Shown one piece after another: positions 16,464 through 21,664 of a stretch of 23,862 nt of DNA (position 1 is its first letter; each line of letters begins with the position of its first letter). Source of the DNA: Promethearchaeota archaeon (GTDB lineage Archaea > Asgardarchaeota > Lokiarchaeia > Sigyniarchaeales > SOKP01); contig JBHLOI010000049.1 in assembly GCA_048940645.1 (NCBI GenBank), positions 1-23,862 on the forward strand, written 5' to 3'. The position numbers and the translations under genes are program-made. A model generated the notes under the pieces. It had not been told where the DNA came from, did not search any database, and was given only the letters and a program-made list of their open reading frames with translations.

Positions 16464-17006
16464 TCAAGTATATCTCTGTTTATCCCGATATTGTTTTACT
16501 GAAATTTCTCTTTCAGTCAACCTATCATTTTTAATTAAAGTTTCTTCAATAGCTTTAACTTCTGCGCGTGTAGTTACCTTAAACTTCTTAAGTCTTTCTA
16601 AGATTTCTTTTTCTCCAAAACCTTTATTATATAACTCTTTAAATTTAACAATTGTTAGTGTATTAAAGTAAATATATTGTTTATTTATAAAAATAATCAA
16701 CCAATTTTTCTTTCTTTGTTTTTGGGATAATTCAAATAATCGTTCTTGAATTTCTTCATATTTTCGCTTGAAATGTTTTGAGATTGTTTTATCATCTATA
16801 GTAGTTTGGTTTTTCAGAAATCTTTTAAGTTTATTACTAAAAAATAGGTTAGGTATGTATGAAAGACCGTACAAAATCAATGTAATACCTGTCATCCAAA
16901 TACCAGCTTGCAGATTGAATATAGCCACAACCGCAATGATAAGTATTAGGATTAAAAACCACTTCCTTCCAATGGATTTTAAAATTACTGTTAATTTTTC
17001 TGGCAT
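16464..17006 (-). CDS. Hypothetical protein with N-terminal transmembrane hairpin and basic soluble domain
   Basis: Two hydrophobic segments (about residues 16-56) followed by a Lys/Arg-rich region. Confidence 0.7.
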   Translation of the reverse strand: MPEKLTVILKSIGRKWFLILILIIAVVAIFNLQAGIWMTGITLILYGLSYIPNLFFSNKLKRFLKNQTTIDDKTISKHFKRKYEEIQERLFELSQKQRKKNWLIIFINKQYIYFNTLTIVKFKELYNKGFGEKEILERLKKFKVTTRAEVKAIEETLIKNDRLTEREISVKQYRDKQRYT

Positions 17007-17134
17007 ATTGATAATTTCAGTTGAACAGTCATTAGATATTATATTATGTTATTAAAGAACACTTAAAAAAATTATTTTTCTTCTGATAAAAATTGGAGAT
17101 ATTAGAGAGAATTATTTTAACCACAAAATTTTTT

Positions 17135-17267
17135 GCGTTTCTGGGTTCGGATGGGACCAGGTATTTTCCTGTTTCACCATGACCGTAGCCGTAGCCACAG
17201 TTTGAAAGTTCCCACAAATCGCAATTGCAGTACTATCTTCAACGCAAAACAGTTTAACTTCCAGCGC
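17135..17267 (-). other. Relaxed bulge-helix-bulge (BHB/BHL) RNA processing motif formed by the two flanks of the permuted 5S
   Basis: GCG (17267-17265) pairs with CGC (17137-17135); 3-nt bulge AAA (17140-17138); 4-bp helix CUGG (17264-17261) with CCAG (17144-17141); AAG (17260-17258) as the second bulge or loop. Confidence 0.75.
17139..17258 (-). rRNA. rrf: 5S rRNA, circularly permuted (canonical 3' half 17258-17194, UACG linker 17193-17190, canonical 5' half 17189-17139)
   Basis: The minus strand reads GUUAAACUGUUUUGCGUUGAAGAUAGUACUGCAAUUGCGAUUUGUGGGAACUUUCAAACUGUGGC-UACG-GCUACGGUCAUGGUGAAACAGGAAAAUACCUGGUCCCAUCCGAACCCAGAA. It contains the 5S hallmarks CCCAUCCGAAC (loop C), GUUAA (loop B) and AGUA/GAA (loop E). 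Helices I-V can be paired by hand. Length is 120 nt. Confidence 0.88.
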
Positions 17268-17338
17268 CGTGCGAAAAGCACTTAACTTTTGTGGTTAAAA
17301 ATACCAACTTCACCATTTCATAAGCTCAACTATTTTTT

Positions 17339-17493: not shown

Positions 17494-19620
17494 TTATCTA
17501 ATAATGCTTTTGTGTTTTCTTAACCCTTTTAATATTACAAAAAATGAAATACCAACAAAAGCAATAATCATAATTAATACAACTATAAGCACATAATCCA
17601 TTAAAGGCTTTGGAATTGTAAATTTGAAATTTTCGTTATATAGGATATCTGAATTATTAGCATAATTTCTTATAAAAAATGCAAAGGAATAATCTCCTGG
17701 ATCATATCTATTAAGCTCATACTCTAAAGTTATTAGTTCTTGGTATTTGTCATTAGATATACGATAATAAGAGTAATCTTCGAAATTATTATTAGATAAT
17801 AATATAAAAACACTTTCAATGTCTGAATGATTATCAAATACGGTGATATTAAAACAAATATTATCTAAAATGGATGGAGATTTTGGAGACCAATTAACAC
17901 TGACAATTTGGGGTTTATGATCATTGGCTATTGTTGAGAAATTAAAATATGAAGGTATTAAATTATGACCCGTGATAATAACATCATAAGTTTCATTTGC
18001 TTGAGGTGGTAATCGAACATTGACTAAACCATTTTCATCTGCATAAATTGTTTGATATTTACCATCATCCGTTTCTAAATGTACTCTAGCAAAGGGTACT
18101 GTCTTATTGTTTGAATTTCTTATGGTAGTTGATATTAAATGACCTTCGGGATAAAAATTAGTAAATGGATTTTGAGCTTTTGTTGGTTTATTAGTATAGA
18201 TATCTAATTCAGGATCTCCAAGTAAACAATAAGTTAATATATTTTTTCGATGGCATTCGAAATATCTAGAGTAGGGTGAAAATATATCAGAATTCATATA
18301 TTCTACTTTAGATTCAAATAATGCTTTTCCTTGTTGGAAATATTTCTGTTCAAAGAATGTTTTCCAAAATAATTTAGCATTTGCGCGATTTAAATATTCT
18401 AAATTTGTATCATTTTCAGCATACCAAGTGACTCTAAGACCACCTATAGATCCCACAGTTCCACCATCTTCTCTTTTTATTAGAGTTTCTCCAATATTAT
18501 TATCATTTTTATCATAAGAAGAACTTGTACATGAAAACGCATAAAACAATGAAGGCATGTTTAAATTTTCACTTGTAGAAGCGTCTGTATTATCATAAAC
18601 AGTAGAAATACCCTCAGTAGCGAGCTTAAAGGGATTACCATGGCCAGCAAAAAAAACTGTTGAATAACCCAAATCAAAATGAGTATCAAAATTGTTGGAA
18701 TCTAAAATTGATTCATTATTGGGGGCTGGAGGGGATGTTGGATCAAAACTAGAAGTAGTTTGATGTAAATGAGTAAAGTTCATCTCTGATAACACATAAT
18801 TTGTCCAAATATATTGAGTTAATCGTGCTTCATCTTCAGCAGGGGAAGAGTCTGATATACCTCCTGCTAATAACATTCTATTCATCCAATTTCCAATATT
18901 AGGGGCAATTTCATATTTTAGAGTTTTATTTACCATTAATTCAAGTTCTGTAGCAGAATCAGCAGGCAATCGGCCAACATAAACTTCTGGACTCCATTCG
19001 ATTTCATCTCTGCCGTTTTTGTTGTATTCTGCCGATTCACCAAAAATGTTATCATTATCCTCATCCCAAGAACCACTTAAATCAGCATAATAAAAGTCAG
19101 TAGGTTTGTAATAATCATCCCAATTAAGATATTCACTTTCTCCCTCTCCTACTTTAATTACATCTGGATTGTAAACGTACCTAATAGGGATCAAACCTTC
19201 TTGGGCATCGCCAATTAACAGAATCCATTTGATATTTTCCCGTTCATAATAAGATTTTATCATATTTCGGATTCTTTCTGCATCATCCCTCCCAGAATAT
19301 TCTGAAAAATTGCTTAAAATTATAGTTCTTACTCCTTTATTGTTTTTCCATTCCACTAAGGGATTAATTGCATCGATAAAATCACTGTTATTTGGTGTTA
19401 TTACCAACATTTCAACTTTTGGTTCATACCAAATGTCATCATACATTTCAGGTAATTTAGATAAATCTATATTTGAAGAATTAGTAGATAATTTCAGATA
19501 ATTAACATTATCACTTTCAAAATCATTATTTCTATTATTATAACGAAAAGGAATAGATAGTAATAGAATTAAAGCAATAAAAGATAATTTACTAAATTTT
19601 TTCAGATTCAATTGCTTCAT
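17494..19620 (-). CDS. Peptidase C25 (gingipain) family cysteine protease, N-terminal signal/anchor and C-terminal TM helix
   Basis: LVEWKNNKG, ILLIGD, TDFYYADL, PEVYVGRLP, catalytic His (FAGHGN) and Cys (AFSCTS), YCLLGDPEL; hydrophobic termini. Confidence 0.9.
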   Translation of the reverse strand: MKQLNLKKFSKLSFIALILLLSIPFRYNNRNNDFESDNVNYLKLSTNSSNIDLSKLPEMYDDIWYEPKVEMLVITPNNSDFIDAINPLVEWKNNKGVRTIILSNFSEYSGRDDAERIRNMIKSYYERENIKWILLIGDAQEGLIPIRYVYNPDVIKVGEGESEYLNWDDYYKPTDFYYADLSGSWDEDNDNIFGESAEYNKNGRDEIEWSPEVYVGRLPADSATELELMVNKTLKYEIAPNIGNWMNRMLLAGGISDSSPAEDEARLTQYIWTNYVLSEMNFTHLHQTTSSFDPTSPPAPNNESILDSNNFDTHFDLGYSTVFFAGHGNPFKLATEGISTVYDNTDASTSENLNMPSLFYAFSCTSSSYDKNDNNIGETLIKREDGGTVGSIGGLRVTWYAENDTNLEYLNRANAKLFWKTFFEQKYFQQGKALFESKVEYMNSDIFSPYSRYFECHRKNILTYCLLGDPELDIYTNKPTKAQNPFTNFYPEGHLISTTIRNSNNKTVPFARVHLETDDGKYQTIYADENGLVNVRLPPQANETYDVIITGHNLIPSYFNFSTIANDHKPQIVSVNWSPKSPSILDNICFNITVFDNHSDIESVFILLSNNNFEDYSYYRISNDKYQELITLEYELNRYDPGDYSFAFFIRNYANNSDILYNENFKFTIPKPLMDYVLIVVLIMIIAFVGISFFVILKGLRKHKSIIR

Positions 19621-20110: not shown

Positions 20111-21664
20111 ATGACGCAAGATTTAGAAGATATTTCTGGAATAGGTAAAGCTACTGCTGAAAAAATGAGAGCAGCGGGGATAGACACAATTGAAAAATTA
20201 GCTTCAAGTAAACCTACAGATTTAACTAAGCTCAAAATTAAAGGAGTGGGAGAACCCACAGCAAATAAATATATAAATAACGCAAAAGAATTATTAAAAT
20301 CTAAAGAAAAAGATAAATCTGAACTTCCAAAGGAAACAGCTCCTAAAAAGGTCGGAAAAAAACCTACAAAAAAATTTTCAACTGAAAAGGCATCTAATAT
20401 AAAGGAACTGATAAAACAACAAGCAGAATGTAATATAGGGTTAGTAGGGCATGTGGATCACGGAAAAACAACTCTTGTTAAAACTTTTACGGGAGATTGG
20501 ACTGATAGGCACTCAGAGGAGCAGGAGAGGGGAATATCAATAAAGTTAGGCTATTCAAATGCTACAATTTTATATTGTCCTGAATGTGACGAGTATTTAA
20601 CTTATTATATGGCAGAAAAAGCTCGTAAAAAAGGTCAAGCCAAGTTGAGTTGTAGTAAATGTGGAGGGAATATAGAGTTCAGAAGAAATATCTCTTTTGT
20701 AGATGCTCCAGGACATGAAATTTTGATGGCTACAATGTTAAGTGGAGCATCATTAATGAATGGCGCTTGTCTATTAATTGCTGCTGATGAGATTTGCCCT
20801 CAACCTCAATCTCGAGAACATCTTGCTGCTTTAAATATAGCAGGAATTAAAAATATTATAATAGTTCAAAATAAAATTGATGCAGTTTCAAAAGAACAAG
20901 CTTTTGAGAATTATAAGCAGATAAAAAAGTTTATTAAAGGTACAATTGCAGAAAACGCTCCCATAATACCTATATCAGCTGTATTTGGTACTAATATCGA
21001 ATTAGTTGTAAGGGCTTTTGAAGAACTTATACCATCTCCAAAATTAAATGAAGATGAAGAATTTCAATTTTTAATAGCGAGATCTTTTGATATTAACAAA
21101 CCCGGAACCGATATTGAAAATTTAAAAGGTGGTGTAATTGGAGGTTCAGTTTTAAAAGGAAAAATAAATGTAGGAGAACAAATAGAAATCAAGCCAGGCA
21201 TACGAATAAAAAGCACTTATACCCCAATTAAGTCACAAGTAGTAAGTATAAGTCAAGGGACCAGCCTTTTAGATGAAGCTAAACCAGGCGGATTAATAGG
21301 ATTAAGAACTAAGCTAGATCCTACTTTAACTAAAGGAGATTCATTAATAGGTCATTTAGTCGGAAAGCCAAATACTTTACCGGAGGTTATTTCTGAAGTT
21401 GAATTAAAAGTCCACCTCCTTGAAAGAGTTATTGGTTCAGAAATGCAAATAAAAGTTACAGAGCTTAAACACAATGAAAAATTATTATTAGTTGTGGGTA
21501 CAGAAAAAACCGCTGGAACTATAACAAAAATTCTTAAAAATTCTTATATCTTACAATTAAATCCTCCAATTTGCATTCCTGAAGAATTTATATTTGCTAT
21601 ATCCAGAATAATAAATAGGCGATATAGATTAATTGGATATGGAGAATTAGTTAATTCTAAATGA
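20111..21664 (+). CDS. eif2g: Translation initiation factor aIF-2 gamma with N-terminal helix-hairpin-helix extension
   Basis: NIGLVGHVDHGKTT, DRHSEEQERGISIKLGY, zinc-binding CPEC...CSKC, FVDAPGHEILMATMLSGA, PQPQSREH, QNKID, ARSFDINKPG, RLIGYG. Confidence 0.95.
   Translation: MTQDLEDISGIGKATAEKMRAAGIDTIEKLASSKPTDLTKLKIKGVGEPTANKYINNAKELLKSKEKDKSELPKETAPKKVGKKPTKKFSTEKASNIKELIKQQAECNIGLVGHVDHGKTTLVKTFTGDWTDRHSEEQERGISIKLGYSNATILYCPECDEYLTYYMAEKARKKGQAKLSCSKCGGNIEFRRNISFVDAPGHEILMATMLSGASLMNGACLLIAADEICPQPQSREHLAALNIAGIKNIIIVQNKIDAVSKEQAFENYKQIKKFIKGTIAENAPIIPISAVFGTNIELVVRAFEELIPSPKLNEDEEFQFLIARSFDINKPGTDIENLKGGVIGGSVLKGKINVGEQIEIKPGIRIKSTYTPIKSQVVSISQGTSLLDEAKPGGLIGLRTKLDPTLTKGDSLIGHLVGKPNTLPEVISEVELKVHLLERVIGSEMQIKVTELKHNEKLLLVVGTEKTAGTITKILKNSYILQLNPPICIPEEFIFAISRIINRRYRLIGYGELVNSK

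What the first reader, a model, noticed from the sequence alone, without database searches (positions are those of the whole stretch)
17182..17201. Normal 5S termini are sealed by a C(UACG)G tetraloop, suggesting a permanently circular mature 5S rRNA
Seen in sequence: where 5S normally has free 5' and 3' ends, helix I is capped as ACUGUGGC-UACG-GCUACGGU. Established knowledge: cUNCGg is an extra-stable tetraloop family. Inference: the linker looks selected for stability rather than for re-cleavage, so the ribosome may carry an endless 120-nt circular 5S, unlike permuted tRNAs whose circular intermediates are reopened. The junction is also a 6-bp tandem repeat (gtagcc-gtagcc, 17185-17196), which may record how the ends were fused.
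Basis: partly seen in the sequence, partly recalled or inferred. Interest (0 to 1): 0.8.

Follow-up and report, generated by a model that had tools for sequence, protein, structure and literature searches.

The report
Hairpin-capped, back-to-front 5S rRNA gene
The hairpin is the sealed "former ends" helix of a 5S ribosomal RNA gene written back half first in a Loki-type Asgard archaeon; splicing-type cut-and-join signals at the gene's ends predict a 120-base ring, but whether that ring stays closed in the ribosome could not be tested here.

Summary
On the minus strand, 17201-17182 reads ACUGUGGC-UACG-GCUACGGU, an 8-bp hairpin capping helix I of a circularly permuted 5S rRNA gene.

Leader and trailer form a 14-bp stem plus a covarying bulge-helix-bulge (BHB) motif. 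Cutting in its bulges and ligating gives a 120-nt piece (17258-17139). Its joint restores the canonical 5S sequence, colinear with normal 5S genes of a sister family.

The gene is the only 5S-like gene in complete relatives. It occurs in 118/131 genomes of the family and in 13 further Asgard families sampled. Some relatives place the break in loop C, and each layout's DNA reads straight across the other's predicted joint. This argues that the joined RNA is the functional form.

The cap is 4 nt in 91/95 distinct homologs. Only 13 are the extra-stable c(UNCG)g form, so size is conserved, not exceptional stability. The gtagcc repeat is a by-product of the UACG loop.

A permanently circular 5S is plausible (about 0.55) but unproven: no RNA data could be obtained.

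This scan has reported the same permuted 5S on other Asgard DNA many times. The literature searched describes none.

The parts
17311..17335 (-). Conserved promoter-like block (A/T-rich, TATA-like CTTATGAAAT) upstream of the leader
   Evidence: The block ATAGNN..AAGCTTATRAAATGG is conserved across species upstream of the 5' stem (alignment). Sister-family canonical 5S genes have similar TATA-like boxes about 25 nt upstream. Function is inferred.
17287..17300 (-). 5' strand of the 14-bp outer processing stem (UUUUAACCACAAAA)
   Evidence: It is perfectly complementary to 17128-17115. It covaries among species: CCACA/UGUGG versus CCAUA/UAUGG.
17269..17281 (-). Small leader hairpin GUGC-UUUUC-GCAC
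   Evidence: Read from the sequence. A hairpin with a different sequence sits at this place in relatives.
17258..17267 (-). 5' half of the BHB motif: outer helix GCG (17267-17265), central helix CUGG (17264-17261), bulge AAG (17260-17258)
   Evidence: It pairs with 17144-17135. Cells are 98.8% paired across 27 distinct sequences, against 8-44% with slid partners, and 4 of 7 pairs show double changes.
17139..17258 (-). Predicted excised and ligated 5S rRNA, 120 nt. Order in the gene: helix II 3' strand, gamma domain, helix I with cap, helix II 5' strand, helix III/loop C
   Evidence: The length and the joint ...CCCAGAA|GUUAAAC... come. It is colinear and gap-free with canonical 5S, at 50.9 bits after rotation. 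The permuted fold is 94.3-94.7% paired versus 34-43% in slid controls, with 14 (27 sequences) and 28 (95 sequences) covarying pairs.
17202..17242 (-). Gamma domain (helix V, loop E, helix IV, loop D)
   Evidence: It aligns to the canonical gamma domain. Helices V and IV covary.
17182..17201 (-). Helix I (8 bp) closed by the UACG tetraloop (17193-17190): the finding itself
17169..17177 (-). Helix II 5' strand (GUGAAACAG), pairing with 17252-17244
   Evidence: A 9-bp helix like that of the sister-family 5S. Seven of 9 pairs covary, and 85% of cells are paired.
17139..17164 (-). Helix III and loop C (beta-domain tip)
   Evidence: Rfam RF00001 positions 26-52 (17138-17163), 21.4 bits, E 0.09.
17135..17144 (-). 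3' half of the BHB motif: central helix CCAG (17144-17141), bulge AAA (17140-17138), outer helix CGC (17137-17135)
17115..17128 (-). 3' strand of the outer processing stem (UUUUGUGGUUAAAA)
   Evidence: The precursor 17300-17115 folds at -62.5 kcal/mol, z -4.59.
17088..17092 (-). T5 tract downstream, a possible archaeal terminator
   Evidence: Read from the sequence. Inference only.

Best explanation
The hairpin is helix I of the organism's only 5S rRNA gene, which is circularly permuted: the 3' half comes first, the former termini are fused by a 4-nt loop, and the 5' half follows.

Proposed pathway:
1. The gene is transcribed on its own from the minus strand.
2. Leader and trailer pair in a 14-bp stem.
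3. Next to the stem a relaxed bulge-helix-bulge motif forms: GCG-CUGG-AAG facing CCAG-AAA-CGC.
4. The tRNA-splicing endonuclease cuts in both bulges, and RtcB joins the new ends.
5. The joint rebuilds the base of helix III and yields a covalently closed 120-nt 5S RNA.
6. The ring most likely enters the 50S subunit as it is. The tetraloop is a passive, solvent-exposed closure of helix I.

Shown here: the permuted gene, its conserved fold, the covarying BHB, and the exact restoration of the canonical sequence.

Inferred: cleavage, ligation and persistence of the ring.

My odds: functional permuted 5S gene 0.97; cut and joined at the BHB about 0.85; ring kept in the ribosome about 0.55.
For: (1) Identity. 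The rotated and joined piece is colinear with sister-family 5S, at 50.9 versus 27.3 bits. The permuted fold is 94.3% paired against 37-43% in slid controls, with 28 covarying pairs in 95 sequences.

(2) It is the only 5S.
- No RF00001 hit in the window's own genome.
- Relatives with 1 or about 10 contigs show only weak hits (25.7-28.9 bits), and those overlap the permuted locus.
- The single canonical 5S in the genus lies beside a bacterial 23S.
- Model R1 finds the gene in 118/131 family genomes and in 28 genomes of 13 other families of the phylum.

(3) BHB.
- The outer and central helices are 98.8% paired, with 4 of 7 pairs covarying. This includes leader positions that lie outside the mature RNA.
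- Predicted products are 119-123 nt without inserts.
- The genome has two EndA paralogs and one RtcB.

(4) Reciprocal control.
- 31 relatives, 4 of them in the same genus, break the gene in loop C instead. All 31 have a full 4-bp central helix and 3-bp outer helix.
- Their DNA is continuous across this window's predicted joint (GAACCCGGAAGUUAAAC).
- This gene type is continuous across their predicted joint (GGUC|CCAUCCGAAC).

(5) Textbook BHB mini-introns with the same AA|N bulges sit inside the gene in relatives.

(6) Cap.
- It is 4 nt in 91/95 homologs, mostly UNNG, with no spacer that could hold processing sites.
- Sister-family canonical 5S genes look transcribed almost end to end, so no 5S end-cutting enzyme need exist.

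(7) Feasibility and precedent.
- A 4-nt connector across the native 5S ends works in E. coli ribosomes (PMC7283268).
- A circular permuted SRP RNA is made by the same machinery (PMC4731332).
Against:
- The BHB is relaxed. There is no inner helix in the strict 3-nt-bulge register, or 3 bp if the 5' bulge is read as 2 nt. A naive BHB scan of this A/T-rich stretch gives dozens of chance motifs, so the case rests on covariation and on the restored joint.
- Joint reads, even if found, would not tell a persistent ring from one reopened at helix I.
- The cap sequence is weakly constrained. Only 13/95 are c(UNCG)g, and four genomes of one genus carry a 35-36-nt non-BHB insert there. This fits a passive cap but does not exclude cleavage.
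- A later check of a sister finding in this scan priced the 'ring is the ribosome's 5S' claim at only 35/100.
Confidence: 0.55

Rival explanations
1. The circle is only an intermediate. After BHB cutting and ligation, a nuclease opens the RNA at or beside the helix I tetraloop. This gives a conventional linear 5S with ends at helix I, as happens with permuted tRNA genes.
For: - Permuted tRNA genes of Cyanidioschyzon are expressed through a circular intermediate that is reopened (Soma et al. 2007, as cited in PMC4267664).
- Archaeal circular pre-16S and pre-23S rRNAs are generally thought to be re-linearised (PMC12918454).
- The cap sequence is only loosely conserved, and some lineages carry longer elements there.
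Against: - The linker is only 4 nt, of constant size, in 91/95 homologs, so there is no room for flanking processing signals.
- No conserved cleavage motif is seen.
- tRNAs are reopened by universal tRNA end-processing enzymes that recognise tRNA shape. Sister-family 5S genes show a TATA-like box about 25 nt upstream and a T tract right after the gene, so no 5S end-cutting activity need exist in this lineage.
Confidence: 0.15
2. The mature RNA is a linear permuted 5S. The precursor is trimmed or cut at the BHB but not ligated, leaving a nick at the base of helix III. In this it resembles the permuted mitochondrial 5S of brown algae, which stays permuted in the final product.
For: - Brown-algal mitochondrial 5S is permuted in the mature RNA (PMC4267664).
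- Helices II and III could hold a nicked molecule together.
- No ligation was shown here.
Against: - BHB cleavage products are the natural RtcB substrates, and RtcB is encoded.
- Close relatives, including members of the same genus, place the break 19 nt away inside the conserved loop C. Both layouts predict the same joined sequence. Unligated RNAs would carry nicks at different functional sites in sister species.
- The joint exactly restores the canonical spacing.
Confidence: 0.2
3. The locus is a decayed or rearranged 5S pseudogene, and the working 5S lies in an unassembled rRNA operon.
For: The window's genome is 89.6% complete, and its 23S is cut off at a contig end.
Against: - Single-contig relatives have no other 5S.
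- 28 structure pairs covary.
- A conserved promoter-like block lies upstream.
- 118/131 family genomes keep the gene.
- All 29 public genome loci holding the sequence GGAAGTTAAACTGTTTYGCGTTG are of the permuted type.
- The joined sequence is absent as DNA from the metagenome collection.
Confidence: 0.02

Closest known systems
Permuted, circular SRP RNA of Thermoproteus tenax / T. uzoniensis (Plagens et al. 2015, PMC4731332)
   Same: - A permuted gene for an essential structured RNA.
- Leader and trailer form a BHB.
- The tRNA-splicing endonuclease cuts it, and RtcB is proposed to circularise.
- The circle is the functional form.
- The endonuclease is heteromeric, with relaxed BHB recognition.
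   Different: - A different RNA: 5S rRNA, a ribosome component.
- Here it is family- to phylum-wide in Asgard archaea rather than confined to two species.
- The break position varies between lineages.
- Circularity and function were shown experimentally for SRP RNA, not here.
Circularly permuted tRNA genes (Cyanidioschyzon merolae; Soma et al. 2007, cited in PMC4267664)
   Same: The 3' half is encoded before the 5' half. The precursor ends are joined at a BHB-like motif to give a circle.
   Different: The tRNA circle is reopened at the linker between the native ends to give normal termini. Here the linker is a minimal 4-nt loop, and reopening is neither indicated nor excluded.
Permuted mitochondrial 5S rRNA of brown algae (Valach et al. 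2014, PMC4267664)
   Same: A natural 5S rRNA whose helix I is a closed hairpin instead of an open-ended helix.
   Different: - It is organellar.
- Its ends lie at the alpha/gamma junction.
- There is no BHB and no ligation, and the mature RNA is linear and permuted.
- Here the ends lie in the beta domain and are predicted to be joined.
Engineered cp5S rRNA in E. coli (Huang et al. 2020, PMC7283268)
   Same: The native 5S ends are linked by a 4-nt connector, and new ends are opened in loop C or loop D. Ribosomes are active, and the cp5S sits where wild-type 5S does.
   Different: It is artificial and is inserted into 23S rRNA, so it is neither free nor circular.
Circular or permuted archaeal 23S rRNA in ribosomes (PMC12918454; PMC7758197)
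   Same: BHB-dependent circularisation of an rRNA whose joined form is retained in ribosomes.
   Different: Those genes are colinear, and circularisation joins the native ends. PMC12918454 states that archaeal 5S is not known to be processed in this way.

Membership tests
5S rRNA (Rfam RF00001) | Three-domain fold (helices I-V) with conserved loop C and loop E sequences | tested here: met
   Colinear with sister-family 5S after rotation and joining, at 50.9 bits. All helices are supported by covariation.
5S rRNA (Rfam RF00001) | Reaches the family's gathering score as a colinear gene | tested here: not met
   No hit at the gathering score. Only positions 26-52 match, at 21.4 bits versus the 38-bit cut-off, because the gene order is permuted.
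5S rRNA (Rfam RF00001) | Free 5' and 3' ends at the tip of helix I | tested here: not met
   In the DNA, helix I is closed by a 4-nt loop. The state in the mature RNA is unknown.
BHB substrates of the archaeal splicing endonuclease (introns, rRNA processing stems, permuted SRP RNA/tRNA) | Central 4-bp helix flanked by 3-nt bulges on opposite strands, each 3' of its helix strand | tested here: met
   CUGG/CCAG with bulges AAG and AAA. The central helix is 100% paired, and UA and CG pairs alternate at one position.
BHB substrates of the archaeal splicing endonuclease (introns, rRNA processing stems, permuted SRP RNA/tRNA) | Outer helix (h) and inner helix (h') next to the bulges | tested here: inconclusive
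   The outer helix GCG/CGC is present and all 3 pairs covary. The inner helix has 0 bp in the strict register, or 3 bp (GUU/AAC) if the 5' bulge is 2 nt. This is a relaxed hBH form. PMC4731332 requires only 'at least one' 3-nt bulge.
BHB substrates of the archaeal splicing endonuclease (introns, rRNA processing stems, permuted SRP RNA/tRNA) | Endonuclease and RtcB ligase encoded by the organism | tested here: met
   Two EndA-domain genes and one RtcB. Many intron-bearing tRNA predictions.
BHB substrates of the archaeal splicing endonuclease (introns, rRNA processing stems, permuted SRP RNA/tRNA) | Cleavage and ligation seen in RNA | not testable with these tools
Scans for the joined sequence in metagenome contigs found nothing.
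Extra-stable c(UNCG)g tetraloops | UNCG loop on a C-G closing pair | tested here: met
   The window has c(UACG)g; the hairpin folds at -11.1 kcal/mol.
Extra-stable c(UNCG)g tetraloops | Feature conserved in homologs, as expected if selected for stability | tested here: not met
   Among 95 distinct homologs, 57 have UNCG and 13 have c(UNCG)g. Also seen: g(UUCG)c 30, UUAG 15, UUUG 14. Loop size (4 nt) and the U1/G4 positions are what is conserved.
Permuted mitochondrial 5S (mtPerm-5S, brown algae) | Ends at the alpha/gamma junction; linear permuted product | tested here: not met
   The gene ends lie in the beta domain, at the base of helix III (or in loop C in some relatives), within a BHB.

The most novel reading that the evidence does not exclude
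Ribosomes of Loki-type archaea, and of many other Asgard archaea, carry an endless, covalently closed 5S rRNA. It is made by the tRNA-splicing machinery from permuted genes. Because the working molecule is a ring, the gene's break point is free to move between BHB-competent sites (base of helix III, loop C, loop B) and to interconvert with BHB mini-introns. This would be the first natural circular 5S rRNA, and it would explain the 'missing' 5S genes of the closest archaeal relatives of eukaryotes.
Probability: 0.5. Interest if true: 0.9.

Novelty: new variant of a known kind. Interest (0 to 1): 0.75.

Why it matters
5S rRNA is held to be a universal, free, linear RNA whose gene is easy to find. 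Here a whole archaeal family, and much of the Asgard phylum sampled, encodes it back to front. Standard annotation therefore finds no 5S: Rfam gives no hit here, and PMC8813620 reports that 5S genes could not be predicted in closed Heimdall genomes.

If the joined ring is the mature form, three things follow. The tRNA-splicing enzymes would become essential ribosome-biogenesis factors. A third natural circular functional RNA would join circular SRP RNA and circular 23S. The ring would also give a natural test of why 5S ends are normally free.

In practice, a covariance model in permuted order recovers the gene and can repair rRNA annotation and MAG quality reporting for these lineages.

Tried and rejected
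- Joined sequence in public contigs. Two scans of metagenome contigs for the joined sequence (CCCAG and CCCGG forms) found nothing, and none of the 193 loci holds it. This shows only that the joint is not present as DNA there.
- Rfam. The gathering threshold gives nothing.
- Single-sequence folding. MFE folding does not recover the 5S fold, for either the linear or the circular form. The structure was therefore taken from homology and tested by covariation.
- Naive BHB scan. A motif scan of the precursor returns dozens of chance hits in this A/T-rich DNA. I rejected it as evidence on its own.
- MAFFT misalignment. MAFFT misplaced sequences with loop C inserts. I replaced it with a covariance-model alignment.
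- Cap insert in one genus. No register gives a 4-bp central helix (and manual check), so it remains unexplained.
- Canonical 5S in the genus. The only canonical 5S there is bacterial contamination.
- Tandem repeat. I rejected gtagcc-gtagcc as a fusion scar: it follows from the UACG loop and is absent in the homologs read with other loops.

Full report
**Observation.** The minus strand of 17201-17182 reads ACUGUGGC-UACG-GCUACGGU.
- It folds as an 8-bp stem with a tetraloop at -11.1 kcal/mol; z is -5.26 and 0 of 200 shuffles fold as well.
- The plus-strand repeat gtagcc-gtagcc at 17185-17196 is also there.

**What the locus is.** Rfam finds nothing in the window at the gathering score. With a loose threshold it finds only 5S positions 26-52 at 17163-17138, at 21.4 bits. 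Reading the minus strand shows all the 5S parts, but in permuted order:
1. helix II 3' strand (17252-17244)
2. gamma domain (17242-17202)
3. helix I 3' strand, UACG, helix I 5' strand (17201-17182)
4. helix II 5' strand (17177-17169)
5. helix III and loop C (17164-17139)

The organism is an archaeon. Its 23S matches the archaeal LSU model at 1210.7 bits, and the window encodes an aIF2-gamma. Public records with the same element are titled Promethearchaeota, that is Loki-type Asgard MAGs.

**Gene ends.**
- UUUUAACCACAAAA (17300-17287) pairs perfectly with UUUUGUGGUUAAAA (17128-17115).
- Just inside that stem, GCG-CUGG-AAG (17267-17258) faces CCAG-AAA-CGC (17144-17135). This gives a 3-bp outer helix, a 4-bp central helix and two 3-nt bulges, each 3' of its central-helix strand. 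That is the geometry of a bulge-helix-bulge splice motif, but without an inner helix in the strict register.
- Both bulges begin with AA, so any symmetric cut up to the usual position after the second bulge base releases the same piece, 17258-17139. It is exactly 120 nt, and joining its ends gives ...CCCAGAA|GUUAAAC....
- When that piece is opened in the tetraloop, it aligns end to end, with no gap at the joint, with the canonical 5S genes of a sister family.
- A profile of those canonical genes scores it at 50.9 bits over positions 4-115. The genomic order gets 27.3 bits over the 3' part only.
- The window's genome encodes two splicing-endonuclease paralogs, as in the heteromeric enzymes with relaxed BHB recognition, and one RtcB ligase (PMC4731332).

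**Conservation and covariation.** I built a covariance model in permuted order (R1).
- In 27 distinct sequences of the genus the fold is 94.7% paired, against 34-41% with slid partners, and 14 pairs show double changes.
- In 95 distinct sequences of the order it is 94.3% paired, against 37-43%, with 28 such pairs.
- Helix I is 99.6% paired, with 6 of 8 pairs covarying.
- The BHB helices are 98.8% paired, against 8-44% slid. All three outer pairs covary (GCG/CGC, ACG/CGU, CGC/GCG). One central pair switches between U-A and C-G together with helix III. Leader bases lie outside the mature RNA, so their covariation supports a precursor-specific structure.

**Is it the real 5S?**
- The window's own genome has no canonical 5S, but its rRNA operon is cut at a contig end. 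Relatives therefore decide the question.
- R1 hits 118/131 genomes of the family, 0/14 of the sister family f2, 1/1 of f3 and 1/4 of f4.
- Family f2 has canonical 5S in 9 of 11 genomes.
- In family genomes of one contig (G102, G104) or about ten contigs (G059, G076, G120), RF00001 gives only sub-threshold hits (25.7-28.9 bits), and these overlap the permuted locus.
- The single canonical 5S in the genus sits beside a bacterial 23S, so it is contamination.
- Across the phylum, full-length R1 matches occur in 28 genomes of 13 further families. This is a lower bound, since the model is Loki-trained and the filters were strict.

**A reciprocal control from relatives.** Among the 100 sequences aligned with R1 (98 of which could be parsed), 67 break the gene where this window does, at the base of helix III (type A). 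A further 31 break it about 19 nt away inside loop C (type B). The 31 include 4 of this genus and 25 of a neighbouring genus.
- Type B uses the same leader motif, GCG-CYGG-AA|C, facing CCGG-UC|N-CGC. All 31 have a 4-bp central and a 3-bp outer helix.
- 27 of the 31 predict the joint GGUC|CCAUCCGAAC.
- Type B DNA is continuous across the type A joint (GAACCCGGAAGUUAAAC). Type A DNA is continuous across the type B joint.
- One f3 genome appears to break in loop B instead.
- Different breaks yield one and the same joined sequence. This is what is expected if the joined RNA is the selected product, and it is hard to reconcile with unligated, nicked RNAs.
- Relatives also carry 30-31-nt inserts in loop D and loop C that are textbook BHB introns. 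One example is CUGC-AA|A-AGUGC...GCACU-GCAG-AA|U, whose removal restores the intron-less sequence.
- Predicted products are 119-123 nt, plus about 30 nt per insert.

**The cap itself.**
- Among 95 distinct homologs of the order, 91 have a 4-nt loop.
- 57 are UNCG, but only 13 are the extra-stable c(UNCG)g. The commonest form is g(UUCG)c (30). UUAG (15) and UUUG (14) are frequent.
- What is conserved is the size and the first U and last G, not the extra-stable class.
- Four genomes of one genus have a 35-36-nt insert in the cap for which I found no BHB register.
- Other Asgard families have UACG, CACG or UUCG caps, or extended hairpins.
- The gtagcc repeat arises only when GGC, UACG and GCUAC meet, so it is not a fusion scar.

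**Does the ring persist?**

For persistence:
- The linker is minimal and of fixed size.
- No conserved cleavage motif is present.
- Sister-family canonical genes have a TATA-like box about 25 nt upstream and a T tract straight after the gene. No 5S end-cutting activity is therefore implied in this lineage.
- A 4-nt connector across the native 5S ends is compatible with active ribosomes (PMC7283268).
- Circular SRP RNA and circular 23S are precedents (PMC4731332, PMC12918454).

Against certainty:
- I have no RNA data.

I put a functional permuted gene at 0.97, cut-and-join at about 0.85, and a persistent ring at about 0.55.

**Prior knowledge.** Full-text searches found no paper describing a permuted or circular archaeal 5S.
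- PMC12918454 states that archaeal 5S is not known to be circularised.
- PMC8813620 reports that 5S genes could not be predicted in closed Heimdall genomes.

This scan's own notes record the same permuted 5S in at least 46 other genomes, including a cap finding like this one. Some of those notes report joint reads in public RNA data. I did not verify those RNA claims and do not count them as evidence.

Noticed in passing
L083 (G102), L087, L086, L085, L090, L166-L169 and other loci: A second break-point type. The permuted 5S gene starts inside loop C (leader GCG-CYGG-AA|C CAUCCGAAC...) and ends ...CCCGGUC|N-CGC. Both types occur within the same genera (g1: 14 A / 4 B; g12: 23 A / 25 B).
   Followed up: yes
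L082 (G026, family f3): A probable third break type. The whole helix III / loop C hairpin lies at the 5' end of the gene and the break falls on the 5' side of loop B. Leader CCCGCC pairs with trailer GGCGGG. The cap is 5-7 nt.
   Followed up: partly
L006, L007, L054 (loop D); L018-L023, L040, L041, L061, L088 and many g12/g13 loci (loop C): Mini-introns of 30-31 nt with clear BHB motifs lie inside the permuted 5S gene. The bulges are of the same AA|N kind as at the gene ends.
   Followed up: partly
L088 (G076), L113, L115, L116 (genus g16): A 35-36-nt insert sits in the helix I cap (hairpin UUGCG...CGCAA plus a tail). No BHB register fits it. It could be an expansion, another kind of intron, or an opening site.
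   Followed up: partly
L099 (G125): A loop C insert contains a second copy of the helix III 5' strand region (GGAUAAUACCCGGUCCC). This may be a relic of a duplication that moved the break point.
   Followed up: no
L026 (G032, sister family f2, single-contig genome): Three identical canonical 5S genes lie in tandem at about 375-nt spacing, each with its own TATA-like box. Such arrays are the kind of substrate from which a permuted gene could arise by duplication and deletion.
   Followed up: no
L033 (G015:C263): The only canonical 5S in the genus lies next to a bacterial 23S and a tRNA, so this is a contaminant contig in that MAG.
   Followed up: yes
window 20111-21664 (+): The aIF2-gamma homolog carries an N-terminal helix-hairpin-helix domain (HHH_5, residues 3-53) ahead of the GTPase domain.
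   Followed up: no
window 17494-19620 (-) and 16464-17006 (-): The 5S gene sits alone in a 487-nt gap between a peptidase C25 homolog and a 180-aa ORF with no Pfam match. It is far from the 16S and 23S genes.
   Followed up: no
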